From NCBI GenBank assembly GCA_002697505.1, contig NZWA01000089.1:1-40997 (forward strand): 40,997 bases of DNA, written 5' to 3'. The notes beneath the pieces were generated by a model that worked only from the letters and a program-made list of their open reading frames with translations, made no database searches and had not been told where the DNA came from. This DNA comes from Flavobacteriales bacterium (GTDB lineage Bacteria > Bacteroidota > Bacteroidia > Flavobacteriales > BACL11). Positions 961-30,580 of this stretch are shown piece after piece (position 1 is the stretch's first letter; each line of letters opens with the position of its first letter). Made by a program: the position numbers and the translations under genes.

Positions 961-1037
961 AGGTTTCACATACCCTGGCAGAAGGCACACCAGAATAAAA
1001 ATGTGCTGTTCACAAGTAAACAAACAAGGAGATGATT

Positions 1038-6885: not shown

Positions 6886-7617
6886 ATGGATAAAAACAAA
6901 TTAGTTGGGTTTATCAACAAATATCATCTTGGTGGAGAGATAAAATCTACTAAGATTGAATCAAATGGAAAGTCACTTACAACAAGATTTATCTCAGGTG
7001 ATAAGTCTGTAGTTGGTAGTGTTAAAATGGATAAGTTTGATGCGTTTGACCCAAGTGAGATTGGAGTTTATAATACTTCACAATTATTATCACTACTTTC
7101 TGTAGTTGGTGATGATGTGGACTTCACAATAGATAACATGGGTGGAAAGTTTGTATCACTACAAATGAAAGACTCAGGTCATGGAACAACATCAAAATAT
7201 ATGTTGAGTGACTTAAGTGTTATCCCAACACCACCACCACTAAAAAACTTACCAAGTGAATTTGAATTAGAATTAAAATTAGATTCATATTTTATTGGTA
7301 CATTTATTAATGGTAAAGGTGCCTTACCTGAAACTGAAACATTTACAATCATTGCAGACAATGATAAAGTAAATATTGTAATTGGATTTTCTAACATTGC
7401 ATCCAATAGAGTTACAATACCTGTTAGTGTAGATAACTATTCAGATATTGAACCTATTTCATTCAGTGCTGAAATGTTTTCAAGTATATTAAGTGCGAAT
7501 AAAGAATGTCAAAATGCAACTATGAAAGTATCATCTGCAGGGTTATCAAAGATTAACTTCTCAATAGATGATTATGAATCAGAGTATTATTTAGTATCAA
7601 CACAATCTAATACATAA
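6886..7617 (+). CDS. Sliding clamp (T4 gp45-like)
   Basis: Size (243 aa) and position fit. SEIGVYNTSQLLSLLSVVGDDVDFTI aligns by eye with T4 gp45 FDVAIYDLNGFLGILSLVNDDAEIS. RBS AGGAG lies upstream. Confidence 0.65.
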   Translation: MDKNKLVGFINKYHLGGEIKSTKIESNGKSLTTRFISGDKSVVGSVKMDKFDAFDPSEIGVYNTSQLLSLLSVVGDDVDFTIDNMGGKFVSLQMKDSGHGTTSKYMLSDLSVIPTPPPLKNLPSEFELELKLDSYFIGTFINGKGALPETETFTIIADNDKVNIVIGFSNIASNRVTIPVSVDNYSDIEPISFSAEMFSSILSANKECQNATMKVSSAGLSKINFSIDDYESEYYLVSTQSNT

Positions 7618-8837
7618 TGTATTTATCGTACTTTGACAAATTCTATGATATGGAACCTTATCTTTACATAGATGAGGTTGAGTGGGAGTATATCAAAAAC
7701 ACCTTTGATAAACAAGATGTAAGAGAAAGTCTTGCAAAGGTTGCGATGTCTTACCCACCACCATACATGGATATATCTGAGAAAGATGCATTAAAACAAC
7801 TTCAGAAACTAAAAGGAATGAGACATAATGAAATTTTAGTTGAAGGAGAGTGGTTTGCACGAGAAGGTACAGAGTACAGATATGATTTAACTTTTGAAGG
7901 TAAACAACAATACTTCAAAAGAAATAATACAGGTAATGATTCAAGTAATTATTTTCAACAAAAGAATAGGTGGAGTGTTGATGGTACAATTGCACCAGGC
8001 CCACATAGAACATGGGAAAGTCATAAGTTTATGACAACATTAATTGGGTCTGCATACTCTCTAAAGTTACCTAAGATTGATAAGAGTGCATTTCGTGTAA
8101 TGATTGGATTGAGAAAATATATTTGTTCTCAATTCAAACCAAATGTTGCAAAGGTATTGTATGATAAATTAGAGAGTAAAAGTATCTTAGACTTTAGTGC
8201 GGGTTGGGGTGATAGACTTGCAGGATTCTATGCAAGTGAAACAGGTGAGTCTTATCTTGGGATAGACCCACGAAAAGAAAATCATCCCATCTATGAAGAA
8301 CAGAAACAATTCTATGAAAAACATAGAACTATGTTTGAGGTTGATAAAAAGAGTATGTTTGTAGAGTATCCTGCAGAGGACTTTGAATATCAAAAGAATA
8401 TGTATGATACCGTATTTACATCACCACCTTACTTTAGTGTTGAGAGATATAGTTATGATGACACTCAGAGTTGGGTAAGATATAAAGATATTGATACATG
8501 GAATACTCAGTTCTTACAAAAAACATTAGAAAAAATATGGCCTTCAATCAAAAGAGGTGGATATTTATTAGTGAACATTGCAGATGTATTTGCACGAACA
8601 GGTGGACAGAGAAACATGGTAGAGATATGTAATCCTATGAATAATTTCTTAAGTACATTCCACGATTCAGAATATAAAGGTTGTATTGGAATGGAGATGG
8701 CAAAGAGACCTAATAGTGGTGGTGCAGGAATGGCACGAGAGACAGATGAAAGGTTTCAAGACTCTACAATACAAAGAGCAGAGGAAACTAAGGATAAAAG
8801 ATTTTGTGAACCAATTTGGATTTGGAGAAAGTTATAA
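7617..8837 (+). CDS. SAM-dependent methyltransferase with SPPY motif (candidate orphan N6-adenine/N4-cytosine DNA methyltransferase)
   Basis: Motif I-like ILDFSAGWGDRLAG is followed about 75 aa later by motif IV-like VFTSPPYF, then GGYLLVNIADV. A long N-terminal region (~180 aa) has unknown function. Confidence 0.55.
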   Translation: MYLSYFDKFYDMEPYLYIDEVEWEYIKNTFDKQDVRESLAKVAMSYPPPYMDISEKDALKQLQKLKGMRHNEILVEGEWFAREGTEYRYDLTFEGKQQYFKRNNTGNDSSNYFQQKNRWSVDGTIAPGPHRTWESHKFMTTLIGSAYSLKLPKIDKSAFRVMIGLRKYICSQFKPNVAKVLYDKLESKSILDFSAGWGDRLAGFYASETGESYLGIDPRKENHPIYEEQKQFYEKHRTMFEVDKKSMFVEYPAEDFEYQKNMYDTVFTSPPYFSVERYSYDDTQSWVRYKDIDTWNTQFLQKTLEKIWPSIKRGGYLLVNIADVFARTGGQRNMVEICNPMNNFLSTFHDSEYKGCIGMEMAKRPNSGGAGMARETDERFQDSTIQRAEETKDKRFCEPIWIWRKL

Positions 8838-9760
8838 TGGATGAAATTAAAAATTCCCTATGGGTAGAAAAGTACCGACCTACAAGTCTTGACACTTATA
8901 TAGGTAATGAACACCTAAAGAGTAAGGTCAAGTTATATCTTGAGAGTGGAGATTTACCACACCTTCTATTGTTTGGTAGGGCTGGTACAGGTAAAACCAC
9001 TCTCGCTAAGTTACTCGTCAATAACATTGAATGTGATTATCTATACATCAATGCATCTGATGAGAGAAAACTTGAAATGGTAAGAGACAAGGTAAAAAAC
9101 TTTGCCTCTACTATTGGGTTTTCAAATATGAAAGTTGTGATTCTTGATGAGGCAGATTACATTACACCTGCATCACAGGCCGCACTTCGTAATCTTATGG
9201 AGACATTTAGTAAACATTGTAGGTTTATCTTAACTTGTAATTATGTTGAGAGAATCATTGACCCAATACAATCAAGGTGTCAATCATTTCAGATTATTCC
9301 ACCTGATAGAAAACAAGTTGCAGTACATCTAAGTGATATCCTACAGAAAGAAAAGGTTAATGCAAAGGTTGATGATATTGTAACAATAGTTAATAGTGGG
9401 TTTCCTGATTTAAGAAGAGTAATTAATGGTGCACAAAGACAAGTTGTAGATGGTGAGTTGATTATTGATGAGGGAATGAGTATACAAAACGACTATAAAG
9501 TAAAGGTATTAGAAATACTTAAGACACAAGATAAGAAAAACTCATTCAAGAATATAAGACAAGTACTTGCAGATTCAAAGGTAACAGACTTCTCAGACTT
9601 ATTTAGATTATTATTTGATACCGTGGATGATTGGGGTAAAGGTCATGTTGCAGAATGTATATTAGCATTGAGTCAGTATCAACAGAGTGATGCAGTAGTG
9701 GTAGATAAAGAGATAAATATCATGGCAATGTTTATAGAAATATTGGGAGTTATAAAATAG
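8837..9760 (+). CDS. Clamp loader AAA+ ATPase subunit (T4 gp44 / RFC small-subunit-like)
   Basis: LWVEKYRP RFC box, Walker A GRAGTGKTT, Walker B VVILDEAD, and a SRC motif (IQSRCQSF). ATG 8837 overlaps the upstream stop (TAATG). The track start at 8816 is an in-frame alternative. Confidence 0.9.
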   Translation: MDEIKNSLWVEKYRPTSLDTYIGNEHLKSKVKLYLESGDLPHLLLFGRAGTGKTTLAKLLVNNIECDYLYINASDERKLEMVRDKVKNFASTIGFSNMKVVILDEADYITPASQAALRNLMETFSKHCRFILTCNYVERIIDPIQSRCQSFQIIPPDRKQVAVHLSDILQKEKVNAKVDDIVTIVNSGFPDLRRVINGAQRQVVDGELIIDEGMSIQNDYKVKVLEILKTQDKKNSFKNIRQVLADSKVTDFSDLFRLLFDTVDDWGKGHVAECILALSQYQQSDAVVVDKEINIMAMFIEILGVIK

Positions 9761-11001
9761 TGTATGACTATTTAAGAGAAATTCCACCATCTTTTAAACA
9801 TGAATATGATAATTTAGTTAAAAATGATATACAGATAGAAGATTCGGTAAAATACCAACTTGTTATATTGGCATATAAAGAAGAAAATCTTATAGGTGAG
9901 TGTATAGAGTCTCTGATAAACCAAATTGCTTCTCCTGATGAGTTTGAAGTGTTGATTATAAATAATTGTTCTACTGAACAAGAATTTGATAATACTGAAT
10001 TAATAGTTAAAGAAAAATTAGATAAATATAAACACAATAATATACATTTAATAAATGTAAAATTTCCAAAAGAAATTGTAAGTTCTTCTTTGGCGGCAAA
10101 ATATGGTATGGACTTTGCATTATATAGGTGGAAAGATTATGTAGACTTCAACAATGGAATAGTTGCATTTTTTGGTGCAGATAATGTATTTGAAAACCAT
10201 TTTGTTTCAGAAGTATTGAAGACTTTCAACAATCCATCAAAGTATGATAATCCATATCAGTTGTATCCAATAGGGTTAGGTGAAGATAAGATAGATATTT
10301 TAATAACACATTGTGATGGTAACTATAAGTTTTCAAGTTTTGAGAATATAATTGATATTTCAGTTCTCAAACCTTATATAAATAAGATAGAAACTATGAA
10401 TGAGTTATTGGGAAAGTGGTATTATGAAAATTTTGATATAGTTTGGGGAGTAAAAAAAGAAAAGAAAGTAAATTTGGACGAAAGATTAATTTATAGACCT
10501 GATGGAAGTCCTGTTTGGCCTAAAACATTTAGGGCATCTGCATATAATGATTTGGGTGGTGTTGAGATTCAGGCACAAGAAGAACAGGCAATAATAATCA
10601 AAGCAGTGATTAATAACTATGTTGTAAAATTTAATGATTTAACAAACTTTACTCATATACAAAGGTTAGAAAAACCAAGAGTTCCTGATGGTAGTTTTAC
10701 ACAAGTGTTGAACGATAGTTTTCAGGCACACATAGATAAAAAAGAATTACAAGTTTATAAACTTGACTATTGGACAATGAGGAACAACATTGAGAAATAT
10801 TTTTATGAAAAAAAATTCTATGGTGATTGGAGACCAAAGTTTTTTTCAGAACAAGACTTAGATAAAATATTAAAAGAGTCAGGAGAATCATATTTATATT
10901 TTAAGAATAAGTTTATCCATCAGTTTCAAGATGAAATAAAAAAGAATTATAGAAAGACAAGCATTAATAATGTTATTAATGACATAAAGAAGAAGTTATA
11001 G
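9760..11001 (+). CDS. Divergent GT2-like (GT-A fold) protein with substituted Asp positions
   Basis: GTG start overlaps the gp44 stop. QLVILAYKEENLIGECIESLINQ...EVLIINNCST and IVAFFGADNVFENHF parallel the GT2 pattern (IPAYNEE...vvDDgStD / flDaDd), but with D-to-N/G replacements. Confidence 0.35.
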   Translation: MYDYLREIPPSFKHEYDNLVKNDIQIEDSVKYQLVILAYKEENLIGECIESLINQIASPDEFEVLIINNCSTEQEFDNTELIVKEKLDKYKHNNIHLINVKFPKEIVSSSLAAKYGMDFALYRWKDYVDFNNGIVAFFGADNVFENHFVSEVLKTFNNPSKYDNPYQLYPIGLGEDKIDILITHCDGNYKFSSFENIIDISVLKPYINKIETMNELLGKWYYENFDIVWGVKKEKKVNLDERLIYRPDGSPVWPKTFRASAYNDLGGVEIQAQEEQAIIIKAVINNYVVKFNDLTNFTHIQRLEKPRVPDGSFTQVLNDSFQAHIDKKELQVYKLDYWTMRNNIEKYFYEKKFYGDWRPKFFSEQDLDKILKESGESYLYFKNKFIHQFQDEIKKNYRKTSINNVINDIKKKL

Positions 11002-11011
11002 GAGTAACGAA

Positions 11012-11242
11012 ATGAATGACGAAAGACAATATCAAGAACCATTAGACATATCAAAGGCAGATACGATTCAATGTGAAGAGTGTGGAAACGCATCCTTTAT
11101 ACAATCATTTTTCTTAAAGAGAGTATCAGCATTGATGAGTCCAAATGGTAAAGAGGCAATCATACCAATCCAAGTATTTGCTTGTGGTAATTGTGGAACA
11201 ATACCAAAGAACATGATGAGTCAAATTCAACCGAGTGAGTAA
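11012..11242 (+). CDS. Small zinc-ribbon protein
   Basis: CEECG ... CGNCG pairs in 76 aa. Confidence 0.5.
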   Translation: MNDERQYQEPLDISKADTIQCEECGNASFIQSFFLKRVSALMSPNGKEAIIPIQVFACGNCGTIPKNMMSQIQPSE

Positions 11243-12651
11243 TGTATACTAAAGTTGGAGATGGACTACAAGTAGTAAGTGGTGACATAGTTAAGAGTTT
11301 AGTTGGTTTAGAGAATCTAACATACAAGATGTCAGAAGAATTCAACTCTGAAAGACTATGGACACCATCTCATCTTTCCATGGATAACGCCTACAAGACA
11401 GGATATATGGAATCATTCTCACATCAGGCATCTATAATTAATTCATACCATGGTGAAGAAAAAGGAATGTGTTCACCTACAGGATGTTATCATTGTTATA
11501 GTTTCTTAAAAGATAAAAGTGTTACAGATAAATCTTATGTAATGACAAGTAAATGTACACGAATAGAAGAAGAGTGTAATGATTTAGAAAGAATGTTTAA
11601 CTTCACTATATCAGAGATAGTGTTTGTTGGTACTGAGAAATATTGTGAGGATAATTTAAATAAGGCAATGACTTTAACATCACAAATGTTAGACCAACTT
11701 GGTATCAAATATTTTTATGAAGTTGCATCAGACCCATTCTTTGGTGATAAATCAGAGTTAAAAAGAAAAGTACAAATCAATAGTGGTTCTAAGATTGAGA
11801 TTAGAGCATGGATTCCTAACGAAGATAGACATGTTGCAATAGGTTCATTTAATCTACATGGTAGAAAGTTTGTTGATAAATTTAATATACAAGACTCAGA
11901 GATGACTGCATGTTTTGGTTGGGGATTAGAAAGATTTGTAGATGTTGTAAGTAAGTATGACAAAACCATAGATGAAACCAAAATCAACTTTAACTTCAAT
12001 ACTGATAACACTTTTATACCTGAAGTTAGAAAAAATGTAATTGATGGTAATGATGGTTGGTTATTGAGAGGTCAGACTTATTGGTTTGGTAGAAAACCTA
12101 TACATGAATATGAAATCCAAACACCAGATATTGGTGAGGTTGTCTATGAAGACATTGATACACTTGAACAACTTGATGGGTGGACATGGGAAATTCTACA
12201 AGGTCTCAAAGAATGGGACAGATTAAATATGGATTGGATTACCATAGAGACAAGAAAAACTTGGTTATGGGATTTAGAAACTGCAAAGAAAAGAATAAAA
12301 GATGGACACAATTTGTGTGCAATGTTTCACGATGGTAAAATGATACAATGGAATTGGTGGTTTATGGGTGAATTTACTTTTTATGACCACGAGTGGAATA
12401 TTGATATGAACTTACCTAAAGACCATTCTTATGGTGGATATTGGGCATGTTTACCTAAATATAGAACTTCAAGAAAACATGGTAAACTGATAGAACATTT
12501 CTACACTTATATTACAAACTATCTTATTAGAAAGAATATAAAATATGACTTGGCATATGTTGATGGTTGGAACAACAAGGCAATCAGTATACATAAGAAG
12601 ATGGGATATGTGGGTTACAATTGGATGGAAAATGAAAACTTTCTCAAATAA
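11242..12651 (+). CDS. Fusion: class II aminoacyl-tRNA-synthetase-like amino-acid ligase core (N-term ~240 aa) plus GNAT-like acyltransferase domain (C-term)
   Basis: N-terminal half: SPTGCYHCY, KCTRIEE (motif 2-like), FNFTISEIVFVG, ASDPFF, and VAIGSFNLHGRKFVDKFNI...CFGWGLERFV (motif 3-like GxGxxR). This matches seryl-tRNA-synthetase-like amino acid:carrier-protein ligases. C-terminal half: GGYWACLPKYR ... NNKAISIHKKMGY is GNAT-like. Confidence 0.5.
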   Translation: MYTKVGDGLQVVSGDIVKSLVGLENLTYKMSEEFNSERLWTPSHLSMDNAYKTGYMESFSHQASIINSYHGEEKGMCSPTGCYHCYSFLKDKSVTDKSYVMTSKCTRIEEECNDLERMFNFTISEIVFVGTEKYCEDNLNKAMTLTSQMLDQLGIKYFYEVASDPFFGDKSELKRKVQINSGSKIEIRAWIPNEDRHVAIGSFNLHGRKFVDKFNIQDSEMTACFGWGLERFVDVVSKYDKTIDETKINFNFNTDNTFIPEVRKNVIDGNDGWLLRGQTYWFGRKPIHEYEIQTPDIGEVVYEDIDTLEQLDGWTWEILQGLKEWDRLNMDWITIETRKTWLWDLETAKKRIKDGHNLCAMFHDGKMIQWNWWFMGEFTFYDHEWNIDMNLPKDHSYGGYWACLPKYRTSRKHGKLIEHFYTYITNYLIRKNIKYDLAYVDGWNNKAISIHKKMGYVGYNWMENENFLK

Positions 12652-12666
12652 TCAATATTTATAGAT

Positions 12667-14088
12667 ATGAACGATTCACAAAGACAAGCTTACGCAAATT
12701 TATTAAAAGAAAAAAGTTTACAGGTAGGAAATCTGTTTACTGGTAGTGCCTATTGGGATACTGAACATGAAGGTATGATATATGCCATGGATTGGATACC
12801 ACAAAGTGGTTCAATAAAACTATTAGAAATGAACACTAACATAGGATTAAGTGGTAGGATGAAACCATACTTTGATTTTAGTGAATTAGTAAGTCATATT
12901 ACAAGTTCTGGTCATACTACATGTACTTATCATGAAGACTATCTAAATTTCAATATAGAACCACAAAGAGTTGAAGACACTTTAGATATTTTTAAACAAC
13001 AACTTAGTTCAAGTTTATCATCTTCAGGATGTACATTTACACATGAATATAATCTATGGGATGAGGTTATACCAACACCATCTTCAACACATTATGTATT
13101 AAGACAAGGACATTCAAATTATCATAATGTTGATATATTATGTGAGAACAAAACTATATTTCGTAATTTTATAACAGGTAGTTTAGGTGAAGATTTCTTC
13201 CCTGCATTTGGTAGTAATATTTCATCGTCATTTAGTAATCCAACAAATGTACCTGATGTTGTTATCAAAGACCCAACTAAAGATATGGGTGTAGGAGTGT
13301 CTTTTACAGACTTTACAAGTGATAGAAATCAAATATATAATAATCATAATTATGTAGAACAATATATAGAACCTGAAATAGATAATAGTAGATATAGATT
13401 ATTTAGAAGTATCATATTGATTGGTAGTGGTAGTGTTAAATATTTGATAAAAAATCCTACTTATACAATTAACTATAGAAAGTTTGGACAACCAAGTGGT
13501 TCAGTTACAATTGGTTCACAAACCACTAATATTTATGATTATAATAATGTTAGAATATGGCAAACAGGACATTTTGAAGGTAACACACCAGTATCAATGT
13601 CTGATGGTTCGGTAAAAACGATTGGTAGTGTAAGTGCAGGTGAAGTTGTTAAGAGTGTAATAGTTGATAACTATCCAAAAAGAGATAATAGTTTTATTTC
13701 GTCAACAACTAATGTAAGTTGGCCTCAATATATACTTGATAAAGGTAATTGGACAGGTTCAATTGGTGAGTTGAGTGAATCAACAAGTTCAGTCAATAGT
13801 GTTCCACAAGTATATTCATGGGGATATTATGAATTAAATGGTTCTACAAAAGTTAATCCTGAAGACTCTATTATGGTTTATGATAATTCAAAATATCAAT
13901 TCAAACCAATGAGAGACATTAAAGTTAACGATGTTTTTGTTACAAAAGGATTTGTTACACAATCAGTATCATCTATAAATTTAGTGACTTCTGAATCTAT
14001 ATTTTATTCATTAGATTTAGAAACAGAAGATAGATATTTTGCAGGTGATGATACTAATTCGGTTATAACTTCCGATAGTTATTGGTAG
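12667..14088 (+). CDS. ATP-grasp-like protein with a C-terminal degenerate Hint (intein-like) domain
   Basis: KLLEMNTNIGLS (an E-x-N Mg site) and VVIKDPTKDMGVGVSF...YVEQYIEP resemble ATP-grasp blocks, but in unusual order. The C-terminal ~170 aa reads GNTPVSMSDGSVKTIGSVSAGEVV ... IKVNDVFVT ... IFYSLDLETEDRYFAG. This follows Hint block order but lacks Cys1, TxxH and the terminal HN. Confidence 0.4.
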   Translation: MNDSQRQAYANLLKEKSLQVGNLFTGSAYWDTEHEGMIYAMDWIPQSGSIKLLEMNTNIGLSGRMKPYFDFSELVSHITSSGHTTCTYHEDYLNFNIEPQRVEDTLDIFKQQLSSSLSSSGCTFTHEYNLWDEVIPTPSSTHYVLRQGHSNYHNVDILCENKTIFRNFITGSLGEDFFPAFGSNISSSFSNPTNVPDVVIKDPTKDMGVGVSFTDFTSDRNQIYNNHNYVEQYIEPEIDNSRYRLFRSIILIGSGSVKYLIKNPTYTINYRKFGQPSGSVTIGSQTTNIYDYNNVRIWQTGHFEGNTPVSMSDGSVKTIGSVSAGEVVKSVIVDNYPKRDNSFISSTTNVSWPQYILDKGNWTGSIGELSESTSSVNSVPQVYSWGYYELNGSTKVNPEDSIMVYDNSKYQFKPMRDIKVNDVFVTKGFVTQSVSSINLVTSESIFYSLDLETEDRYFAGDDTNSVITSDSYW

Positions 14089-14091
14089 GGA

Positions 14092-14379
14092 ATGAGTTCT
14101 TACTTAGTCGGAAATGTTATAATTAAAGATTCTTCTGAATACAGAAAGTATGAGAGAAGAATATTTCGTTATTTAAAAAAACATAATGGTAAATTACTTG
14201 TGTATGATGATAATCCAACATCAGTGCAAGGTAATATAGATGGTAGGTTATTGATTATGGAATTTCCAAATAAAAAAAGTGCATTAGAATTTTGGAATGA
14301 TGAAGATTATATAAAGATGTCGGAGAAATACAGATACCATTGTAGTGAAGTACAATTCGTAACTATAATAGGAGATTAG
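14092..14379 (+). CDS. DUF1330-family protein (dimeric alpha/beta-barrel)
   Basis: 95 aa. IKDSSEYRKYERRIFRYLKKHNGKLLVYDD...LLIMEFPNKKSALEFWNDEDY fits the DUF1330 pattern remembered from bacterial homologues. Confidence 0.5.
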   Translation: MSSYLVGNVIIKDSSEYRKYERRIFRYLKKHNGKLLVYDDNPTSVQGNIDGRLLIMEFPNKKSALEFWNDEDYIKMSEKYRYHCSEVQFVTIIGD

Positions 14380-14380
14380 T

Positions 14381-14872
14381 ATGTATGTATTAGAACACAA
14401 GGAGATTCCATTTAGTAGAATGGAAGTTGTAAAAGAAGATACACCAGAGTTAGATATTTTTTATGAACCTGATATGAAAAACTTTGAATACTATGATTCT
14501 GATGGAACACCAATAGGAATGTATATTATTTACAGAAATGATAAAAAAAATGTTGTTTGTGGTAGGAACTATTATATTTATAAACAACAGAGAACTAAAG
14601 GTTGGGGTTTAAATTGTATACTATCTTGTATCAATTATTCCTTTCAATTATATCCAGAGATTGATATCTTTTGTTGGTCTACTCATGTAGGTAATAAAGT
14701 TATGGACAGAATATGTTCAAAGATATATGAAGAAACAAGGACAGAAACCAATAATCCAAACATATTTGGTTTCAATGAACCACCACCATCTGAGTTACAT
14801 TCGGTTACAAGAAAATATATGGAAGAGTTTAATAAAAAATATCCAAAGGGTTTTAAAAGATTTAGAATATGA
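14381..14872 (+). CDS. GNAT-family N-acetyltransferase-like protein
   Basis: YKQQRTKGWGLNCIL matches GNAT motif A (Q/R-x-x-G-x-G/A). The size of 163 aa is typical. Confidence 0.4.
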   Translation: MYVLEHKEIPFSRMEVVKEDTPELDIFYEPDMKNFEYYDSDGTPIGMYIIYRNDKKNVVCGRNYYIYKQQRTKGWGLNCILSCINYSFQLYPEIDIFCWSTHVGNKVMDRICSKIYEETRTETNNPNIFGFNEPPPSELHSVTRKYMEEFNKKYPKGFKRFRI

Positions 14873-15303
14873 GTAAAGTTAAAGGTTTATTTGACCATGT
14901 AAAACAAATCACAAATGTACAGAGTCCTACATATTGGGATACATTAAGTGAGGGTGATAAAAAGACATGGAGTAATTACATGATTCACAGATTTCTTAGT
15001 ATGAAATCAGAGTGGATTCAATTGGTAAATGAAGTACAAAAGTATTGGGAGTTGGCTCCTAAGAATGTGTATCAGTTTTATATTGATGTACTACCACGAG
15101 GTAGAACTTTCCTTAAATACACAAAGTCAAAACATAAGTCAAAAGTAAATCCATGGGTTATGGAACACTTGACCGATTATTTTGAATGTAGTTCAAAAGA
15201 AGTAGATGATTACTTGGAGATATTAACACCACAACAAGTAAAGACAATCATCATGAAGTATGGTGTAGATGATAAACAACTAAAAACAATATGGAGTAAA
15301 TAA
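14869..15303 (+). CDS. Clamp loader small subunit (T4 gp62-like)
   Basis: WSNYMIHRFLS aligns with T4 YSKFMVENALS, DVLPRGRTFLKYTK with AVPRGKRYGKWAK, and VMEHLTDYFECSSKEVDDYLEIL with IIKLLAKRYQVNTNDAINYKSIL. Alignment by eye to T4 gp62. Confidence 0.55.
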   Translation: MSKVKGLFDHVKQITNVQSPTYWDTLSEGDKKTWSNYMIHRFLSMKSEWIQLVNEVQKYWELAPKNVYQFYIDVLPRGRTFLKYTKSKHKSKVNPWVMEHLTDYFECSSKEVDDYLEILTPQQVKTIIMKYGVDDKQLKTIWSK

Positions 15304-15863
15304 TGAGTAAGAATTATAGAAACGAAGAAGCATTTTATATGAAGGAAATGGAATGGGGTGTTAATTCAAAAACAAACACTACTTACATGAACTATGAATT
15401 TGATATAGATTCACTATATTCAACAATAGTGAAATGTGATTATTTGGTTAGAGTGAATCCCAATACAGATATCAATTTAAATATTGCTTCATATGGTGGT
15501 GATGTATATGCAATGTTAGGATTGGTAGATTATATCAAAGGACTATCAGTTAAAGTTAATACACATTGTGTTGGAACTTGTATGAGTGCTGCATCAGTAC
15601 TATTATCATGTGGTACAGGTACAAGAACAATCACTAAACATGGAACCGTAATGGTTCACGAAGGTTCAGCATTTGAGGCAGGTAAGACTACTGATGTTAT
15701 GAAAGGTGTTGACCACTTAAAAGATTTACAGAAAGATATTAATGAAATACTTGGTGAAGTTACAAATAAAGATGCAAGGTTTTGGGAACTTGCAGGAAGG
15801 AACGATTCATACTTTGATGCAGAAACTTGTTTAGAGTATGGAATTGTTGATAAAATTGTATAA
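15303..15863 (+). CDS. ClpP-family (S14) serine protease-like protein
   Basis: GGDVYAMLGLVDYI...VGTCMSAASVLLSCGTG..TVMVHEGS parallels ClpP GGSVTAGLAIYD...GQAASMGAFLL...VMIHQP. The Ser and His positions are kept. Confidence 0.7.
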   Translation: MSKNYRNEEAFYMKEMEWGVNSKTNTTYMNYEFDIDSLYSTIVKCDYLVRVNPNTDINLNIASYGGDVYAMLGLVDYIKGLSVKVNTHCVGTCMSAASVLLSCGTGTRTITKHGTVMVHEGSAFEAGKTTDVMKGVDHLKDLQKDINEILGEVTNKDARFWELAGRNDSYFDAETCLEYGIVDKIV

Positions 15864-15898: not shown

Positions 15899-15923
15899 AA
15901 CATATGATAAATTGGAGAATAAT

Positions 15924-16310
15924 ATGAAAGTTATCAAGGATACGCCTAAGAGTAACTCAAGTAATGAGTATGTGGATGTTATAGAGTATATGGAAACAAA
16001 ATATCCACAGATGACATCAGAGTTTAAAAAAATACAACAAGACCAATATGAGTTGTTCTTAAAAAAACAACATGATTACGGCCCACAAAACATTGCAGTT
16101 GGTACTGCACTAAAAAATGATGAGGACAAAAGATTATCGTTGATGGGTATTTGGTTTAGGATTAATGATAAAGTAGAGAGAATCAAAACTCTTATTATGA
16201 GAGGTGACGATGGTTCGTTAGAGAATGAGGGTTTGGTAGATAGTTATTCAGATATCTCAAACTATGGAGTGATGGCACAAGTAGTCGCGAGAGGTAAATG
16301 GGCTAAGTAA
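15924..16310 (+). CDS. DUF1599 / MazG-like all-alpha nucleotide-pyrophosphohydrolase-fold protein
   Basis: KKQHDYGPQNIAVGT ... NDKVERIKTL ... DSYSDISNYGVMA fits the DUF1599 pattern. GGAG at 15914-15917 favours ATG 15924 over the TTG at 15912 used in the track. Confidence 0.5.
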   Translation: MKVIKDTPKSNSSNEYVDVIEYMETKYPQMTSEFKKIQQDQYELFLKKQHDYGPQNIAVGTALKNDEDKRLSLMGIWFRINDKVERIKTLIMRGDDGSLENEGLVDSYSDISNYGVMAQVVARGKWAK

Positions 16311-17140
16311 TGGACATTGGAATTGTTGGACAAGGTTATGTGGGAACTGCTATTAAAGTAGGATTTGAACCACACTATAATTACTTACATACTTATGATA
16401 AGTACGACCTTGCAAAATCTACCGTACCTAATTTAAAAGATTTAGTTGATAATTGTGAAGTTATATTCGTATGTGTTCCAACACCAATGAGAAAAGATGG
16501 GACTTGTTATACAGGTATTGTAGAAGAGGTAATTAGAGAGATTGATAGTTATGCAAATAATAATCCTATTGTAGTGATTAAGTCAACCGTACCACCAGGT
16601 ACTACTGATATTATGAACAAAAATTATTCAAATGTTACCGTAATATTTAATCCTGAGTTCTTAACAGAAGAAAACTTTTTGGAAGACTTTAAGAATCAGA
16701 AAAGAATTATATTGGGTGGTCAGAGAAATGGAACTAATAAACTCAGACAAATATACTCAAAGGTATTTCCACATGCAACTATAGTTAAGACTGGTAGTAA
16801 AACTGCAGAGATGGTAAAGTATTTTATCAACAACTTCTTGGCCACTAAAGTATCATTTGCAAATGAAATGTATAAGGTGTGTGAACAAGTAGATATTGAT
16901 TATGATAAAGTTGTAGAGTATGCAACTTATGATGAGAGATTAGGTAAATCCCATTGGGCAGTACCTGGTCCTGATGGTGACCATGGATTTGGTGGTCATT
17001 GTTTACCAAAAGATTTAAGTGCGATTATCAATCAATTTGAAACATATGGTTTATTAGAGGCAGTTGAAAGTGTCAATGACCAAGTTCGTGATAATCGTGA
17101 TTGGGAAGAAATGAAAGGAAGAGCAATAATAGATGAGTAG
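16310..17140 (+). CDS. UDP-glucose/GDP-mannose 6-dehydrogenase-family protein lacking the C-terminal UDP-binding domain
   Basis: GIVGQGYVGTA Rossmann motif, VIKSTVPPGTT, NPEFLTEENFLEDF, AEMVKYFINNFLATKVSFANEM, and the catalytic-Cys motif FGGHCLPKD. Only 276 aa, against ~390-450 aa for canonical enzymes. Confidence 0.75.
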   Translation: MDIGIVGQGYVGTAIKVGFEPHYNYLHTYDKYDLAKSTVPNLKDLVDNCEVIFVCVPTPMRKDGTCYTGIVEEVIREIDSYANNNPIVVIKSTVPPGTTDIMNKNYSNVTVIFNPEFLTEENFLEDFKNQKRIILGGQRNGTNKLRQIYSKVFPHATIVKTGSKTAEMVKYFINNFLATKVSFANEMYKVCEQVDIDYDKVVEYATYDERLGKSHWAVPGPDGDHGFGGHCLPKDLSAIINQFETYGLLEAVESVNDQVRDNRDWEEMKGRAIIDE

Positions 17141-17966
17141 AATTAGTTATAGTCAATTCAGTAAGTGGGATAAATGTCCATACACTTGGAAATTAGATTA
17201 TGTAGACAAGGTTAGTACATTCAAGGGAAACATATATACATTATTTGGTTCTGCAATCCATGAAACTATTCAGGCATACTTAGTTGCATATTATAATAAA
17301 ACTATCAAATATGCAGACTCACTTCCATTACATGATATTCTACAATACAGAATGGAAGAGAATTATAAGAAGTCCAAAGAACAACATGGTGATGATTTTG
17401 ATGTATCATTGGATGATATGAAAGAGTTCTTCCAAGATGGTATCAATATTATTGATGAGTTCTTGAAAAGAAAATCAAGTTACTTTCCTAAGAAAAGTAC
17501 TGAGTTAGTTGGTATTGAGTTAGACTTAAATCAGAACTTAGATAACAAACTAACTTTCATTGGATATATGGATGTGGTTATACATAATAAGAAAACAGGT
17601 CGTATTAAAATCATTGATATCAAAACCGCAACAATGGGTTGGAACAAATACATGAAGGCTGATAAGAACAAGACTAATCAGTTGTTATTGTACAAGAAGT
17701 TTTTTGCAGACCAAGCAGATATTCCAATTGATAAAATAGATGTTGAATATTTAATATTAAAGAGAAGATTATATGAGAATATAGTTTATCCACAAAAAAG
17801 AATACAAGTGTTTACACCAGCAAGTGGTAAACCAAGTATCAATAAGGTTATGACAAGATTAGACGAGTTTATGTCTGAGTGTTATGATGAAGATGGTAAC
17901 ATTATTGACAATGATTACCAAAAGTGTGAAAAACACAAAAAATGTAGATTATGTAAGGATTTATAA
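17133..17966 (+). CDS. PD-(D/E)XK nuclease, Cas4/RecB-like, with a putative 4-Cys cluster
   Basis: N-terminal Cys (WDKCPY), GYMDVV...IKIIDIKT (D...D-x-K), QLLLYKKFF (QxxxY), and C-terminal CEKHKKCRLC. Confidence 0.7.
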   Translation: MSRISYSQFSKWDKCPYTWKLDYVDKVSTFKGNIYTLFGSAIHETIQAYLVAYYNKTIKYADSLPLHDILQYRMEENYKKSKEQHGDDFDVSLDDMKEFFQDGINIIDEFLKRKSSYFPKKSTELVGIELDLNQNLDNKLTFIGYMDVVIHNKKTGRIKIIDIKTATMGWNKYMKADKNKTNQLLLYKKFFADQADIPIDKIDVEYLILKRRLYENIVYPQKRIQVFTPASGKPSINKVMTRLDEFMSECYDEDGNIIDNDYQKCEKHKKCRLCKDL

Positions 17967-18430
17967 TGATTACACCAACACTAAGGTTAAAGTTATCAGA
18001 TTTTATTGATAAACCATGGGAACAAGATGTATTAGATGAATTATCTAATGTAGGGAATGAAGTATTTCAAAACCAATTCACGATTTATTTTTGGTATGAT
18101 AGAAATACAGAATCAATAGATTTGAGTAGGTTAAGTCAGTTCTTGAAACAAAGAGAATCTGAAACTAACAAACCACAAAAAACTATTATCAGACCAGAGT
18201 TTTTTGATAAACAAGTATTTTTTATTTGGTACGATGTAATACCAAGAAGTATACACGAAAATAACCACATTCAATACTCAAGATTTAGTTGGTTGTATAG
18301 TGACCCAAGTACAGGTATAGTTGAAGGTATTAAAAACTTTAAAGAGACTTGGGAATTTGTATCAAGAGACCCAGAAAGAAGACCAAGGAAACAAAAAAGA
18401 AATGATGATGAAAGTAGCAATCATAGGTAG
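17966..18430 (+). CDS. Hypothetical protein with a basic C-terminal tail
   Basis: Coupled ORF (TAATG with the upstream gene). No recognisable motif. Confidence 0.5.
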   Translation: MITPTLRLKLSDFIDKPWEQDVLDELSNVGNEVFQNQFTIYFWYDRNTESIDLSRLSQFLKQRESETNKPQKTIIRPEFFDKQVFFIWYDVIPRSIHENNHIQYSRFSWLYSDPSTGIVEGIKNFKETWEFVSRDPERRPRKQKRNDDESSNHR

Positions 18431-18809
18431 TAGAAGTTATACTAACAAAAGAAAGATAAAAGATTTTGTCTTCAAGTTAAAAGAAAAAGTTGGAGATGAT
18501 TTAGTAATAGTAAGTGGTGGAGCAAAACAAGGTTCTGATAAATATGCAAAACAATATGCACTTGAGTTTGATATAAATTACTCAGAGTTCCCACCATACC
18601 ACGAACCACATAATCAACATTGTGTATATGGTGCATTTAGATACAATAAACAATATAGTGTTGGTAATTACCATAAAAGAAATAAAGACTTAGTAGAATA
18701 TAGTGACAATGTGGTTGCATTTTGTACAGAAGGTAAGATAACAGATGGTACAGGTTCTGCATTAAAGTCCGCAAAAAAAATAGATAAAAAAGTAATTATT
18801 TTTGATTAA
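18402..18809 (+). CDS. DUF2493 (SLOG-superfamily, DprA/Smf-like Rossmann) protein
   Basis: VAIIGSRSY...LVIVSGGAKQGSDKYAKQYA...KRNKDLVEYSDNVVAF...GTGSALKSAKK fits the DUF2493 pattern. The likely start is the ATGATGATG at 18402-18410 rather than the track start at 18321. Confidence 0.55.
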   Translation: MMMKVAIIGSRSYTNKRKIKDFVFKLKEKVGDDLVIVSGGAKQGSDKYAKQYALEFDINYSEFPPYHEPHNQHCVYGAFRYNKQYSVGNYHKRNKDLVEYSDNVVAFCTEGKITDGTGSALKSAKKIDKKVIIFD

Positions 18810-26885: not shown

Positions 26886-26894
26886 GAGATAAAG

Positions 26895-30579: not shown

Positions 30580-30580
30580 A

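What the first reader, a model, noticed from the sequence alone, without database searches (positions are those of the whole stretch)
9760..14872. Undescribed six-gene cassette combining three amino-acid-activating/transferring enzyme types (aaRS-like, ATP-grasp-like, two GNATs)
The cassette is tightly coupled and wedged between the two clamp-loader genes. Its six genes are:
- a GT2-like protein whose canonical Asp positions are substituted (LIINNCST, GADN);
- a CxxC...CxxC zinc ribbon;
- a class-II aaRS-like::GNAT fusion;
- an ATP-grasp-like::Hint-like protein;
- a DUF1330 protein;
- a stand-alone GNAT.

Three independent chemistries for forming amide or ester bonds with amino acids are co-located. 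I recognise no carrier protein, NRPS module or precursor peptide. Plausible outputs include an aminoacylated or peptidyl small molecule, an aminoacylated sugar feeding the downstream glycan island, an amino-acid-type nucleobase hypermodification, or covalent modification of a host target. I am not aware of a characterised phage system with this composition.
Basis: inference. Interest (0 to 1): 0.82.

Follow-up and report, generated by a model that had tools for sequence, protein, structure and literature searches.

The report
Phage amino-acid ligase island variant
Between the two clamp-loader genes of an uncultured marine T4-like phage lies a rare version of a widespread, swappable gene island whose core is two unusual fusion enzymes that probably join an amino acid to another molecule without tRNA or a carrier protein; the product is unknown.

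Summary
The six + strand ORFs exist at the stated coordinates, tightly packed between gp44-like and gp62-like clamp-loader genes. Most domain calls hold:
- A is GT2-like with NN in place of DD.
- B is a CxxC...CxxC zinc ribbon.
- C is an amino-acid:[carrier-protein]-ligase-like class II aaRS core fused to a GNAT.
- D is a circularly permuted, glutathione-synthetase-like ATP-grasp fused to a degenerate Hint domain.
- E is DUF1330.
- F could not be confirmed as a GNAT.

They are not a fixed six-gene unit. In about 135 related loci, only GNAT plus D is constant. B is probably a backbone gene: it occurs in 217 viral contigs, some with no island at all. A and E are sporadic. F is restricted to the window's lineage.

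The window carries a rare variant (15 viral contigs) of a widespread island that normally reads GNAT, D, 2-5 2OG oxygenases and often a B12 radical SAM enzyme. In the variant the GNAT has gained the aaRS-like domain. D has lost the Hint 'HN' motif and the short [I/L]PPK tail. The oxygenases are gone.

Best reading (inferred): a tRNA-free, carrier-free module that makes an aminoacyl or peptidyl amide conjugate. The acceptor is unresolved (small amine or amino sugar, nucleobase, or protein). No cultured phage has C or D.

The parts
8816..9760 (+). gp44-like clamp-loader ATPase (left flank, backbone)
   Evidence: PHROG 168 5.9e-82; Pfam AAA and DNA_pol3_delta2. 71-99% identical in all related loci.
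9760..11001 (+). A: GT2-like protein (413 aa) with NN in place of the DD nucleotide-binding motif. A sporadic accessory gene.
   Evidence: Pfam PF00535 1e-9. PDB 6p61 alignment IIINDGSTD vs LIINNCSTE. Alignment with the window's two other GT2 genes. Present only in the window, L017/L018/L032/L034/L113/L114; found outside the island in L058/L060.
11012..11242 (+). B: 76-aa CxxC...CxxC zinc-ribbon protein. Most likely a backbone gene of the clamp-loader module rather than a cassette member.
   Evidence: Four Cys and a conserved SALVSPxGxEA loop are invariant. 217 relatives in viral contigs. gp44-B-gp62 occurs with no island in L107 and L109, and HolB-B-clamp loader A occurs in Microcystis phage Mel-JY01. 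dN/dS 0.04-0.14, like gp44 and gp62. No family or PDB match.
11242..11961 (+). C, N-terminal domain (aa 1-240): class II aaRS catalytic core of the amino-acid:[carrier-protein]-ligase / methanogen-SerRS type. No tRNA-binding domain.
   Evidence: Pfam PF00587 3.8e-8. phmmer vs PDB: Bll0957 1.6e-13. NCBIfam aa--[ACP] ligase 9e-28, but 97 bits against a cutoff of 357. Foldseek 3mey 5e-15. Zn ligands C82/E125/C224, motif 2 R107/E109 and motif 3 R231 are invariant in 10 homologues.
12082..12651 (+). C, C-terminal domain (aa ~281-469): GNAT-fold domain, homologous to the stand-alone GNAT that precedes D in nearly all islands.
   Evidence: hhalign of C's C-terminal domain vs island GNAT clusters: 94-96% probability, E 1e-7 to 8e-9. 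Those GNATs pass Pfam Acetyltransf_1 (2e-7 and 2.4e-6). Model secondary structure is beta-beta-beta-beta-alpha-beta-alpha. No direct Pfam hit for C.
12667..13551 (+). D, N-terminal domain (aa 1-~295): divergent, circularly permuted ATP-grasp ligase (glutathione synthetase / GspS / YgiC-like).
   Evidence: Foldseek 7uk6 3.8e-5, 5oes 7e-5, 2io7 1.4e-4, 1m0t 1.7e-4. D42/E54/N56 (Mg triad spacing as in Ddl), K201 and E231 are invariant across 20 homologues, with E-x-N preceding the Lys as in eukaryotic GSH synthetase. Only 23 representative clusters in 1.84 billion proteins. No Pfam, NCBIfam or PHROG hit.
13564..14088 (+). D, C-terminal domain (aa ~300-473): Hint-fold domain lacking the Cys1 and terminal His-Asn autoprocessing residues.
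   Evidence: Foldseek BIL2 6tmm 3.4e-5, Hedgehog 6tyy/1at0 and inteins. Homologues P0020-28 and P0033-36 have Pfam Hint/PT-HINT/Intein hits. The window D ends ...VITSDSYW where canonical D has ...LVHN+[IL]PPK.
14092..14379 (+). E: DUF1330 protein (95 aa). A sporadic accessory gene.
   Evidence: Pfam PF07045 5.2e-15. Present only in the window, L019/L021/L030/L035/L115.
14381..14872 (+). F: 163-aa protein of unknown fold. It follows D only in the window's lineage. GNAT assignment unverified.
   Evidence: Pfam Acetyltransf_1 E = 0.07, below cutoff. No PDB hit alone or as a profile. hhalign vs island GNATs <1%. The RxxGxG-like 'RTKGWG' motif is present in F but absent from its 31-33% identical F' relatives.
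14869..15303 (+). gp62-like clamp-loader small subunit (right flank, backbone)
   Evidence: PHROG 225 9.8e-17; Pfam Phage_clamp_A 0.0033.

Best explanation
The interval holds a rare, derived variant of a widespread hypervariable island. The island is inserted in the clamp-loader operon of an uncultured marine T4-like phage clade. The closest cultured DNA polymerase is 45% identical, from Microcystis phage Mel-JY01.

**Working core.** The core is C plus D, with F as a lineage-specific helper. B is a backbone zinc-ribbon gene. A and E are optional passengers.

**Proposed mechanism.**
1. C's aaRS-like domain binds a small amino acid on its Cys-Glu-Cys zinc site and makes the aminoacyl-AMP. The motifs are shown; the activity is inferred.
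2. There is no tRNA-binding domain and no carrier protein. The aminoacyl group is therefore passed to free CoA, as aa:CP ligases can do in vitro, or directly to an amine. This step is inferred.
3. The fused GNAT domain then either transfers that aminoacyl group from CoA to an acceptor amine, or caps the new alpha-amine with acetyl-CoA, as MshD does in mycothiol synthesis. This step is inferred.
4. D's glutathione-synthetase-like ATP-grasp domain uses ATP to make a second amide bond between a carboxylate and an amine. Its Hint domain has lost its cleavage residues and now serves only as a binding or structural module. The fold and the catalytic triad are shown; the substrates are unknown.

**Output.** The product would be a small aminoacyl or peptidyl amide conjugate on an unidentified amine-bearing acceptor.

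**Relation to the common island form.** There, the equivalent building block may be the short [I/L]-P-P-K peptide encoded at the end of D, after the Hint 'HN' cleavage motif. The window's lineage appears to have replaced that supply with an aaRS-like amino-acid activator.
For: **C, N-terminal domain.** Its best hit by sequence, NCBIfam model and fold is the aa:[carrier protein] ligase. The Zn ligands and motif 2/3 residues are invariant.

**CoA as possible acceptor.** aa:CP ligases aminoacylate free CoA (PMC5370406, section 7, read). PDB 3pzc is Bll0957 bound to CoA.

**No carrier or tRNA.** No carrier motif, tRNA or RNA family was found in the window.

**C, C-terminal domain.** It is homologous to the Pfam-positive GNATs that sit immediately upstream of D in C-less islands. 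The GNAT-D adjacency is essentially universal across the loci.

**D.** The fold matches GSH synthetase, GspS and YgiC plus Hint. D42/E54/N56/K201/E231 are invariant.

**Other adenylating enzymes occupy the slot before the GNAT in sister islands.**
- A truncated ANL-type enzyme, NCBIfam 1.6e-17.
- A QueC-like PP-loop protein.

**Reciprocal pattern.**
- 58 of 58 distinct C-less D proteins keep ..LVHN + [IL]P..K. The tail either ends the protein or is followed by Cys1 of a second Hint.
- 13 of 16 D proteins from C-containing islands lack it. The other three carry a non-homologous regex match.
- 2OG oxygenase genes average 3.2 per island (range 2-5) without C and 0.44 with C.

**Selection.** Purifying selection acts on all six genes.

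**Minimal natural island.** It is B-C-D-F only, in L005-L007 and L117.
Against: - No activity, substrate or product is known for any member.
- The D model is only moderately confident (pLDDT 66; TM 0.27-0.31 over two domains), and D has no sequence-level link to any ATP-grasp family.
- C's GNAT domain has a degenerate acyl-CoA motif and no direct Pfam hit, so its donor cannot be predicted.
- The CoA relay is an inference from in-vitro side activities of distant homologues scoring 97 bits against a 357-bit family cutoff.
- The link to the [IL]PPK tail is correlative.
- The acceptor is unidentified. Neighbouring genes point in several directions: sugar enzymes, transporters, sulfotransferases, and DNA-modification-associated domains.
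Confidence: 0.42

Rival explanations
1. Amino-sugar route (mycothiol-like logic). The acceptor is a de-N-acetylated amino sugar or nucleotide sugar. C ligates an amino acid to the sugar amine and its GNAT acetylates it. D adds a further residue. The product feeds the phage's glycan or nonulosonic-acid genes, or is a free glycoside.
For: - In sister C-containing islands a PIG-L deacetylase and sulfotransferases sit between C and D (L008, L015, L116, L118).
- Lineage III embeds B-C-D among GT25, Gly_transf_sug and DegT genes.
- The window has the GT2-like A and, downstream, UDP-Glc dehydrogenase, GT4, GT2, a CMP-sugar synthetase, an MptE/Maf-like protein and an epimerase.
- The set GT + PIG-L + aaRS-like ligase + GNAT is the enzyme logic of mycothiol synthesis (MshA-D). 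This rests on established knowledge and is alluded to in PMC2922099.
Against: - The window and its minimal relatives (B-C-D-F) have no PIG-L or deacetylase in the island.
- A is sporadic and has non-canonical catalytic residues.
- The downstream glycan genes are backbone genes, shared also by C-less phages.
- MshC is a class I CysRS paralogue, not a class II one.
Confidence: 0.2
2. Protein or peptide modification. C and D add amino acids to a protein or ribosomal peptide. Candidate targets are the zinc-ribbon B (as LysW-type carrier or RiPP-like precursor), a virion protein, or a host protein. D's Hint domain would act as the protein-binding module.
For: - B precedes the enzymes in nearly every island and has an invariant exposed loop.
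- Zinc-ribbon carrier plus ATP-grasp ligase is the LysW/LysX arrangement (established knowledge).
- Sister islands are rich in typical peptide-tailoring enzymes: SPASM and B12 radical SAM enzymes, P4H-type 2OG oxygenases, Asp/Arg hydroxylase, and a ClpP-like protease next to B.
- Canonical D carries autoprocessing Hint motifs and a conserved short tail.
Against: - B persists without any island.
- B's C-terminus is not conserved, ending in E, Q, S or D, unlike LysW's invariant terminal Glu.
- B evolves like a backbone gene.
- The window lineage has lost the oxygenases, the radical SAM enzymes and the Hint catalytic residues.
Confidence: 0.15
3. DNA or nucleobase hypermodification. The island decorates a modified base in phage DNA, or a nucleobase precursor such as a 7-deazaguanine carboxylate, with an amino acid or peptide. 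The swappable island would diversify the modification against host restriction.
For: - The island sits inside the polymerase-clamp-clamp-loader operon.
- The backbone next to it encodes DUF1599 ('nucleotide modification associated domain 1'), a PD-(D/E)XK nuclease, a cpYpsA/YAcAr SLOG protein and a DNA-methylase-like protein.
- Some sister islands carry a QueC-like protein (8e-9).
- Lineage V couples C and D with a Vut_1/YhhQ-type transporter (3e-46) and a PfkB kinase.
- Alternative island types sit on near-identical backbones, with gp44 91-92% identical both with and without C. This pattern fits an arms-race locus.
Against: - No base hydroxymethylase, aGPT-pyrophosphorylase, DpdA/TGT or 5-hmdU kinase was seen in the 41-kb window.
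- The 2OG enzymes match P4H-type PF13640, not TET/JBP.
- The QueC and Vut_1 genes are not in the window's lineage.
Confidence: 0.12
4. One reading: all six genes form one dedicated biosynthetic cassette with three independent amino-acid chemistries acting in a single pathway.
For: The six genes are co-directional, nearly contiguous, and all under purifying selection. No promoter or terminator signal above chance separates them.
Against: - Gene content differs among phages with 94-99% identical gp44: A,B,C,D,F'; B,C,D,E,F; B,C,D,F',ANL; and B,C,D,F.
- B occurs 14 times more often than C, and also alone.
- F is not verifiably a GNAT.
Confidence: 0.06

Closest known systems
Amino acid:[carrier protein] ligases (Bll0957 / Atu2573 type; NCBIfam NF005479; PDB 3mey, 4h2s)
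   Same: Truncated class II aaRS catalytic core related to methanogen-type SerRS. It has the Cys-Glu-Cys zinc site, motifs 2 and 3, and no tRNA-binding domain. It is the best hit for C by sequence, family model and fold.
   Different: C scores far below the family cutoff (97 vs 357 bits). No carrier protein or phosphopantetheinyl transferase is nearby. C is fused to a GNAT domain, and it is phage-encoded.
aaRS::GNAT-fold fusions that work through aminoacyl-tRNA (fungal AspRS::MprF-like/DUF2156 proteins; mycobacterial LysRS-MprF; VlmL/VlmA pair)
   Same: An aaRS-type activating module is coupled, in one polypeptide or one operon, to a GNAT-fold transferase that moves the amino acid to a non-ribosomal acceptor (PMC2922099).
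   Different: Those use complete aaRSs with tRNA-binding domains and Fem/MprF-type tandem GNAT domains. C has only the catalytic core and a single small GNAT related to acetyltransferases, so a tRNA intermediate is unlikely.
Mycothiol / bacillithiol pathway (GT, PIG-L deacetylase, aaRS-like Cys ligase MshC, GNAT MshD)
   Same: The enzyme logic is the same: an aaRS paralogue amide-links an amino acid to a freed sugar amine, and a GNAT then acetylates it. PIG-L lies next to C in sister islands.
   Different: MshC is a class I enzyme. There is no PIG-L in the window, no evidence for cysteine, and an extra ATP-grasp::Hint enzyme.
Eukaryotic-type glutathione synthetase and glutathionylspermidine-synthetase-like ATP-grasp ligases (GspS, YgiC, YjfC)
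   Same: These are the best fold matches for D's N-terminal domain. The motif order is permuted in the same way (E-x-N before the ATP-binding Lys), and the Mg triad, Lys and Glu are conserved.
   Different: There is no detectable sequence homology (no Pfam or NCBIfam hit). D is fused to a Hint domain and restricted to one phage clade.
Hint-superfamily autoprocessing domains (inteins, Hedgehog Hog domain, bacterial intein-like and BUBL BIL domains)
   Same: D's C-terminal domain has the Hint fold. Canonical island homologues keep the terminal His-Asn and a downstream Cys1 Hint with a TxxH block.
   Different: The window's copy lacks Cys1, the TxxH block and the terminal HN, so it is not expected to cleave or splice. 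Fusion to an ATP-grasp ligase has not been described in the literature searched.
LysW/LysX amino-group carrier protein system
   Same: A small zinc-ribbon protein is encoded next to an ATP-grasp ligase.
   Different: B lacks LysW's conserved acidic C-terminal tail and terminal Glu and persists without the ligase. D is not a RimK/LysX-type ATP-grasp.

Membership tests
Amino acid:[carrier protein] ligase (NF005479) | Class II aaRS catalytic core with motif 2 (fRxE) and motif 3 (GxGxxR) | tested here: met
   PF00587 3.8e-8. R107/E109 and R231 align to Bll0957 and are invariant in 10 homologues.
Amino acid:[carrier protein] ligase (NF005479) | Active-site zinc bound by Cys-Glu-Cys, as in methanogen-type SerRS | tested here: met
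   C82, E125 and C224 align with Bll0957 chain residues C151, E196 and C299 and are invariant. Metal binding itself was not tested.
Amino acid:[carrier protein] ligase (NF005479) | No tRNA-binding or anticodon-binding domain | tested here: met
   The model and fold search cover only the catalytic core (272 aligned columns to the 296-residue Bll0957 chain). The rest of C is the GNAT domain.
Amino acid:[carrier protein] ligase (NF005479) | Cognate phosphopantetheinylated carrier protein encoded alongside | tested here: not met
   No PP-binding Pfam hit among the window ORFs scanned. No GxDS[LIVM] motif in any of the 483 ORFs of 130 aa or less across 111 loci, or in small ORFs of the window.
Amino acid:[carrier protein] ligase (NF005479) | Score above the curated family (equivalog) cutoff | tested here: not met
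   97.1 bits against a cutoff of 357.
GNAT acyl-CoA N-acyltransferase (C, C-terminal domain) | Recognisable GNAT core (beta4-alpha3 acyl-CoA motif, beta5-alpha4) | tested here: inconclusive
   No Pfam hit in any of the 10 C homologues. However, hhalign gives 94-96% probability to island GNAT clusters whose members pass Acetyltransf_1. The motif is degenerate: 'YRTSRKHGKL'.
GNAT (stand-alone F) | Significant match to a GNAT family or fold | tested here: not met
   Pfam E = 0.07 and 13.8 bits against a 20.7 cutoff. No PDB hit. hhalign <1% to island GNATs.
ATP-grasp carboxylate-amine ligase (glutathione synthetase-like, permuted) | ATP-grasp fold | tested here: met
   Foldseek probability 1.00, E 4e-5 to 2e-4, to 7uk6, 5oes, 2io7, 7uka and 1m0t. 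The model confidence is moderate (pLDDT 66).
ATP-grasp carboxylate-amine ligase (glutathione synthetase-like, permuted) | Mg-binding acid...E-x-N triad, ATP-binding Lys, hinge Glu | tested here: met
   D42, E54, N56, K201 and E231 are invariant in 20 homologues. Assigning these residues to those roles is by motif analogy (inference).
ATP-grasp carboxylate-amine ligase (glutathione synthetase-like, permuted) | Sequence-family membership (Pfam or NCBIfam) | tested here: not met
   No hit in Pfam, NCBIfam, PHROGs or PDB sequences.
Hint / intein superfamily | Hint fold | tested here: met
   6tmm 3.4e-5, 4o1s, 6tyy, 1at0 and 2lwy. Viral Hint proteins match as well. Homologues carry PF07591, PF01079 and PF14890.
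Hint / intein superfamily | Catalytic Cys/Ser at position 1, TxxH block and terminal His-Asn | tested here: not met
   The window D has '..TGHFEGNT..' at the start, no TxxH block, and ends '..VITSDSYW'. Canonical relatives end '..LVHN'.
LysW-type amino-group carrier protein (for B) | Conserved acidic C-terminal tail ending in Glu, used as the attachment site | tested here: not met
   C-termini are ..QPSE..IASQ..IGLTS and ..ISLDD.
RiPP-type pathway | Dedicated precursor peptide co-varying with the tailoring enzymes | tested here: inconclusive
   B does not co-vary with the enzymes. A candidate peptide, the [IL]PPK tail after Hint HN, exists in C-less islands but not in the window.
GT2 glycosyltransferase (for A) | GT-A fold with DD (nucleotide) and DxD (metal) motifs | tested here: inconclusive
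   Pfam GT2 is above its cutoff (39 bits vs 23.3). The DD motif is replaced by NN, and DxD is reduced to a single Asp ('GADN').

The most novel reading that the evidence does not exclude
The island family at this site may be a new kind of phage-encoded peptide-conjugate pathway.

- In the common form, the building block would be a ribosomally made 4-5 residue peptide ([I/L]-P-P-x-K). It forms the C-terminal tail of the ATP-grasp::Hint enzyme itself.
- That tail would be released by Hint Asn-cyclisation, or activated as a thioester by a second, Cys1-bearing Hint.
- It would then be tailored by prolyl/lysyl-hydroxylase-type 2OG oxygenases, a B12 radical SAM enzyme and the GNAT, and ligated by the ATP-grasp domain.
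- The window's variant would be the same pathway after a ribosomal-to-non-ribosomal switch. The Hint is dead, the tail and oxygenases are lost, and an aaRS-like amino-acid activator fused to the GNAT supplies the residue through aminoacyl-AMP or aminoacyl-CoA, with neither tRNA nor carrier protein.
Probability: 0.15. Interest if true: 0.9.

Novelty: new variant of a known kind. Interest (0 to 1): 0.66.

Why it matters
**Two undescribed protein architectures emerge.**
- A carrier-less aa:CP-ligase-like core fused to a GNAT.
- A permuted ATP-grasp fused to Hint domains. This family is confined to 23 representative clusters among 1.84 billion proteins.

**The island is common.** The two architectures sit in an island present in at least about 200 marine viral contigs. 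The site is swapped between closely related phages, which is the signature of an arms-race or host-manipulation locus.

**If C works as proposed.** It would be a natural example of an aaRS core feeding an acyltransferase through aminoacyl-AMP or aminoacyl-CoA. That intermediate has long been discussed for the origin of peptide synthesis.

**If the Hint-tail idea is right.** It would define a new way of releasing a peptide natural product.

**Annotation.** The zinc-ribbon B should be treated as a clamp-loader-module gene, and GT2-like A and DUF1330 E as passengers.

Tried and rejected
- **Nucleotide search against cultured phages.** A blastn search of the whole interval found only a 163-bp gp44 match to Pelagibacter phage Mosig.
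- **D against sequence libraries.** Pfam, PHROGs, NCBIfam and PDB sequences gave nothing.
- **B against PDB.** As a profile it gave only generic zinc-ribbon noise, E > 0.1.
- **F as a GNAT.** Rejected as unproven.
- **The 259-aa protein before the GNAT as a split aaRS domain.** Rejected: hhalign gives no similarity. It is GDSL/SGNH-like instead.
- **LysW-type carrier role for B.** Rejected because its C-terminus is variable and it occurs without the island.
- **Bacterial relatives of D.** One alignment had no usable conserved stretch. The other pattern matched 7 stretches in genome contigs, none homologous.
- **Literature searches.** Searches for ATP-grasp + Hint + phage, aa:CP ligases, and pelagimyophage islands found no description of this system.
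- **Regulatory and RNA signals.** The promoter/terminator scan showed nothing above shuffled expectation. No tRNA or Rfam family was found.
- **Decay or pseudogene explanation.** Rejected because catalytic residues are invariant and dN/dS is 0.04-0.29.

Full report
**1. What is in the sequence.**
Six + strand ORFs occupy 9760-14872 exactly as described. Their spacers run from -4 to +15 nt.
- They lie between a gp44-like clamp-loader ATPase (8816-9760; PHROG 168, 5.9e-82) and a gp62-like small subunit (14869-15303; PHROG 225, 9.8e-17).
- The window is AT-rich (about 31% G+C), with all genes on one strand.
- The phage has no close cultured relative. The best DNA-polymerase match is 45% identity to Microcystis phage Mel-JY01, and the only nucleotide match is 163 bp of gp44.
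- No promoter or terminator signal exceeds chance. No tRNA or Rfam family is present.

**2. The six proteins.**
- **A** is GT2-like (PF00535, 1e-9). It has NN for the DD motif and a single Asp left of the DxD.
- **B** is a 76-aa CxxC...CxxC zinc ribbon with no family or structure match.
- **C, N-terminal domain (aa 1-240)** is a class II aaRS catalytic core.
  - Its nearest relative is the amino acid:[carrier protein] ligase Bll0957. This holds by phmmer (1.6e-13), by NCBIfam (9e-28, but 97 bits against a 357-bit cutoff) and by Foldseek (5e-15).
  - The Cys-Glu-Cys zinc ligands and the motif 2/3 residues are invariant in its ten homologues.
- **C, C-terminal domain (aa ~281-469)** gives no Pfam hit. 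It is nevertheless homologous (hhalign 94-96%) to small stand-alone proteins in related loci that pass Pfam's GNAT model.
- **D** has no sequence-family hit.
  - Its AF2 model (pLDDT 66) matches eukaryotic glutathione synthetase, GspS and YgiC/YjfC in the first ~295 residues. It matches BIL, Hedgehog and intein Hint domains in the rest.
  - The invariant residues D42, E54-x-N56, K201 and E231 have the spacing of an ATP-grasp Mg triad, Lys and hinge Glu. Their permuted order is the one known from eukaryotic glutathione synthetase (the role assignment is inference).
  - More distant D homologues carry Pfam Hint, PT-HINT and intein domains.
- **E** is DUF1330 (5e-15).
- **F** could not be shown to be a GNAT.
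- All six genes are under purifying selection (dN/dS 0.04-0.29).

**3. The genes are not one cassette.**
I collected about 135 related loci from metagenome and viral contigs. I compared gene order between gp44 and gp62.
- Phages whose gp44 is 94-99% identical to the window's carry different sets: A-B-C-D-F', B-C-D-E-F, B-C-D-F'-ANL or B-C-D-F.
- A also occurs outside the island in L058 and L060.
- E is confined to a handful of near-identical relatives.
- F (or a 31-33% identical F') follows D only in this lineage.

**4. B is probably a backbone gene.**
- It has 217 relatives in viral contigs against 15 for C.
- In L107 and L109 the order is simply gp44-B-gp62.
- In Microcystis phage Mel-JY01, the closest cultured relative, a B homologue sits between HolB and the clamp-loader A subunit with no island.
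- Its dN/dS resembles that of gp44 and gp62.
- A functional tie to the island cannot be excluded. I put it at about one in four.

**5. The real conserved unit.**
In 104 of 109 loci (redundant set) a D homologue is present. A GNAT, or C, lies immediately upstream of it. The common island reads as follows.
- B.
- Then variable genes: a GDSL/SGNH-like 259-aa protein, methyltransferases, a truncated ANL adenylating enzyme, a Zn-dependent alcohol dehydrogenase (Zn-ADH), a QueC-like protein and a SPASM radical SAM enzyme.
- Then GNAT, D, 2-5 P4H-type 2OG-Fe(II) oxygenases, an optional B12 radical SAM enzyme, and gp62.

The aaRS-like domain is found only fused to the GNAT, in a minority of islands. 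Those islands fall into several lineages.
- **Lineage I** is the window type.
- **Lineage II** has PIG-L, sulfotransferases, a radical SAM enzyme and an MFS transporter.
- **Lineage III** is embedded among glycosyltransferases and DegT.
- **Lineage V** has a PfkB kinase, DUF5020, a Vut_1 transporter and a sulfotransferase.

Backbones with 91-92% identical gp44 carry either island type, so the island is exchanged by recombination. Mosaicism is also visible within the island: against L033, C is 97% identical but D only 85%.

**6. A reciprocal pattern.**
- In 58 of 58 distinct D proteins from C-less islands, the first Hint domain ends in ..LVHN followed by a short [I/L]-P-(P)-x-K/R tail.
- That tail either ends the protein (IPKR, LPPK, IPGKD and similar) or is followed by the Cys1 of a second Hint domain that has a TxxH block.
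- In 13 of 16 D proteins from C-containing islands, the HN and the tail are absent. The other three carry a non-homologous match to the regular expression.
- The window's D ends ..VITSDSYW.
- 2OG oxygenase genes average 3.2 (range 2-5) per C-less island and 0.44 per C-containing island.

**7. Mechanism.**
*Shown:*
- C has an intact aa:CP-ligase-type active site, no tRNA-binding domain, and a fused GNAT-fold domain.
- D has an ATP-grasp-type catalytic constellation and a Hint fold without cleavage residues.
- No carrier protein is encoded.

*From the literature:*
- aa:CP ligases activate Gly or Ala and can aminoacylate free CoA and cysteine as well as their carrier (PMC5370406). A Bll0957-CoA complex is in the PDB (3pzc).
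- aaRS modules fused to, or paired with, GNAT-fold transferases are known, but they work through aminoacyl-tRNA (PMC2922099).

*Inferred:*
- C makes an aminoacyl-AMP and passes the residue to CoA or directly to an amine.
- Its GNAT either transfers that residue or N-acetylates it.
- D forms a second amide bond at the expense of ATP.
- The dead Hint domain holds a ligand or partner.
- Adenylating enzymes of three unrelated folds (aaRS-like, ANL, PP-loop/QueC-like) occupy the slot before the GNAT in different islands. This supports an 'activate, transfer, ligate' logic with interchangeable activators.

**8. The acceptor is unresolved.**
- **Amino sugar.** Sugar enzymes and PIG-L next to C in sister lineages favour an amino-sugar acceptor, following mycothiol-like logic.
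- **Soluble metabolite.** Transporters, a kinase and sulfotransferases favour a soluble metabolite.
- **DNA or nucleobase.** The replication-operon location, the neighbouring DUF1599/SLOG/PD-(D/E)XK genes, and the QueC-like and Vut_1 genes in other lineages keep a DNA or nucleobase target alive.
- **Peptide or protein.** The radical SAM, 2OG oxygenase, ClpP-like and Hint content of the common island favours a peptide or protein substrate.

None of these accessory genes is in the window's own minimal island (B-C-D-F). I therefore commit only to a small aminoacyl/peptidyl amide conjugate and rank the acceptors as rivals.

**9. Comparison with known systems.**
- C works like an aa:CP ligase. It fails membership on two tested features: no carrier, and a score far below the family cutoff.
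- D works like a glutathione-synthetase/GspS-type ATP-grasp but belongs to no sequence family. It is confined to 23 representative clusters in 1.84 billion proteins. No relative was found in 185,579 prokaryotic genomes by the pattern scan (limited sensitivity).
- D's Hint domain has the fold but not the catalytic residues.
- B fails the LysW test.
- No paper in the searchable library describes the island or either fusion.

**10. Verdict.**
The unit was drawn wrongly, and one of the three 'chemistries' (F) is unverified.
- What is there is a rare, derived variant of a widespread, uncharacterised, recombining phage island built on two undescribed fusion enzymes.
- It is a new variant of known amide-forming enzyme logic.
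- There is a modest chance (about 0.15) that the island family represents a new way of making peptide conjugates.

Noticed in passing
window 1032-3767: A 911-aa protein with CarboxypepD_reg plus TonB-dependent-receptor Plug domains (SusC-like N-terminus) lies between an unknown gene and the DNA polymerase. It is conserved (62-99%) at the same place in related phage contigs. This is an outer-membrane-receptor-like gene in a phage replication module, and it hints at a Bacteroidota host.
   Followed up: partly
L013:6750-8561, L048, L044 and 55 other D homologues (C-less islands): The first Hint domain of canonical D ends ..LVHN followed by a conserved [I/L]-P-(P)-x-K/R tail. The tail either terminates the protein or is followed by Cys1 of a second, Hedgehog-like Hint that lacks a terminal HN. 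This may be a Hint-released or thioester-activated short peptide.
   Followed up: partly
L028:7374-14502; L120-L130: One C-containing island lineage consistently couples C and two D paralogues with a PfkB-family kinase, DUF5020, a Vut_1 (YhhQ-type) transporter (3e-46) and a Sulfotransfer_4 enzyme. It often follows a DUF4494 protein and a second, divergent ClpP-like protease.
   Followed up: partly
L008:8574-18290; L015; L116; L118: Another C-containing lineage places a sulfotransferase and a PIG-L deacetylase between C and D. These are followed by a radical SAM enzyme, a 267-aa unknown, an MFS/acetyl-CoA-transporter-like membrane protein, a 2OG oxygenase and a second sulfotransferase. An unusual SPASM-first radical SAM protein lies upstream of B.
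   Followed up: partly
L031:7084-7773; L016:4971-5660; L042:7569-8315: Truncated (229-248 aa) ANL-superfamily adenylating enzymes (TTGSTGKPK, GYGSTE; NCBIfam acyl-CoA ligase 1.6e-17) occur after F' in close relatives of the window. They occur before the GNAT in some C-less islands.
   Followed up: partly
window 15303-15863 and 15912-18809: A ClpP-family protease gene lies directly after gp62. It is followed by DUF1599 ('nucleotide modification associated domain 1'), UDP-glucose dehydrogenase, a PD-(D/E)XK nuclease, a DUF2515-like protein and a cpYpsA/YAcAr SLOG protein. All are backbone genes in the relatives and suggest DNA or nucleotide modification.
   Followed up: no
window 19065-34314: A long glycan-type region contains two GT4-like genes, two GT2 genes, an HpcH-like aldolase, an LdpA-like 4Fe-4S protein, a CMP-sugar synthetase (CTP_transf_3), an MptE/Maf-like protein, an NAD epimerase/dehydratase, DUF2334 and a SPASM radical SAM enzyme (32127-33140). 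It resembles nonulosonic-acid synthesis and protein glycosylation loci.
   Followed up: no
window 7617-8837: A 406-aa protein with a weak DNA N6/N4-methylase match (PF01555, 3e-4; PHROG 12517, 4e-14) lies immediately upstream of gp44 and overlaps it by 22 nt. A second copy, about 50% identical, is present in some relatives.
   Followed up: no
L033 / L016 versus window 11242-14088: There is mosaic ancestry inside the island. C is 97% identical to the window but the adjacent D is only 85%, with gp44 at 94%. This indicates recombination breakpoints between C and D.
   Followed up: no
L111 (Microcystis phage Mel-JY01, record 77524-77769) and L110 (Flavobacterium phage immuto, 43062-43295): Remote B homologues exist in cultured phages. 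In Mel-JY01 the homologue lies between the HolB-like ATPase and the clamp-loader A subunit. In the Flavobacterium phage it is annotated 'Zn-finger protein' in an unrelated neighbourhood.
   Followed up: partly
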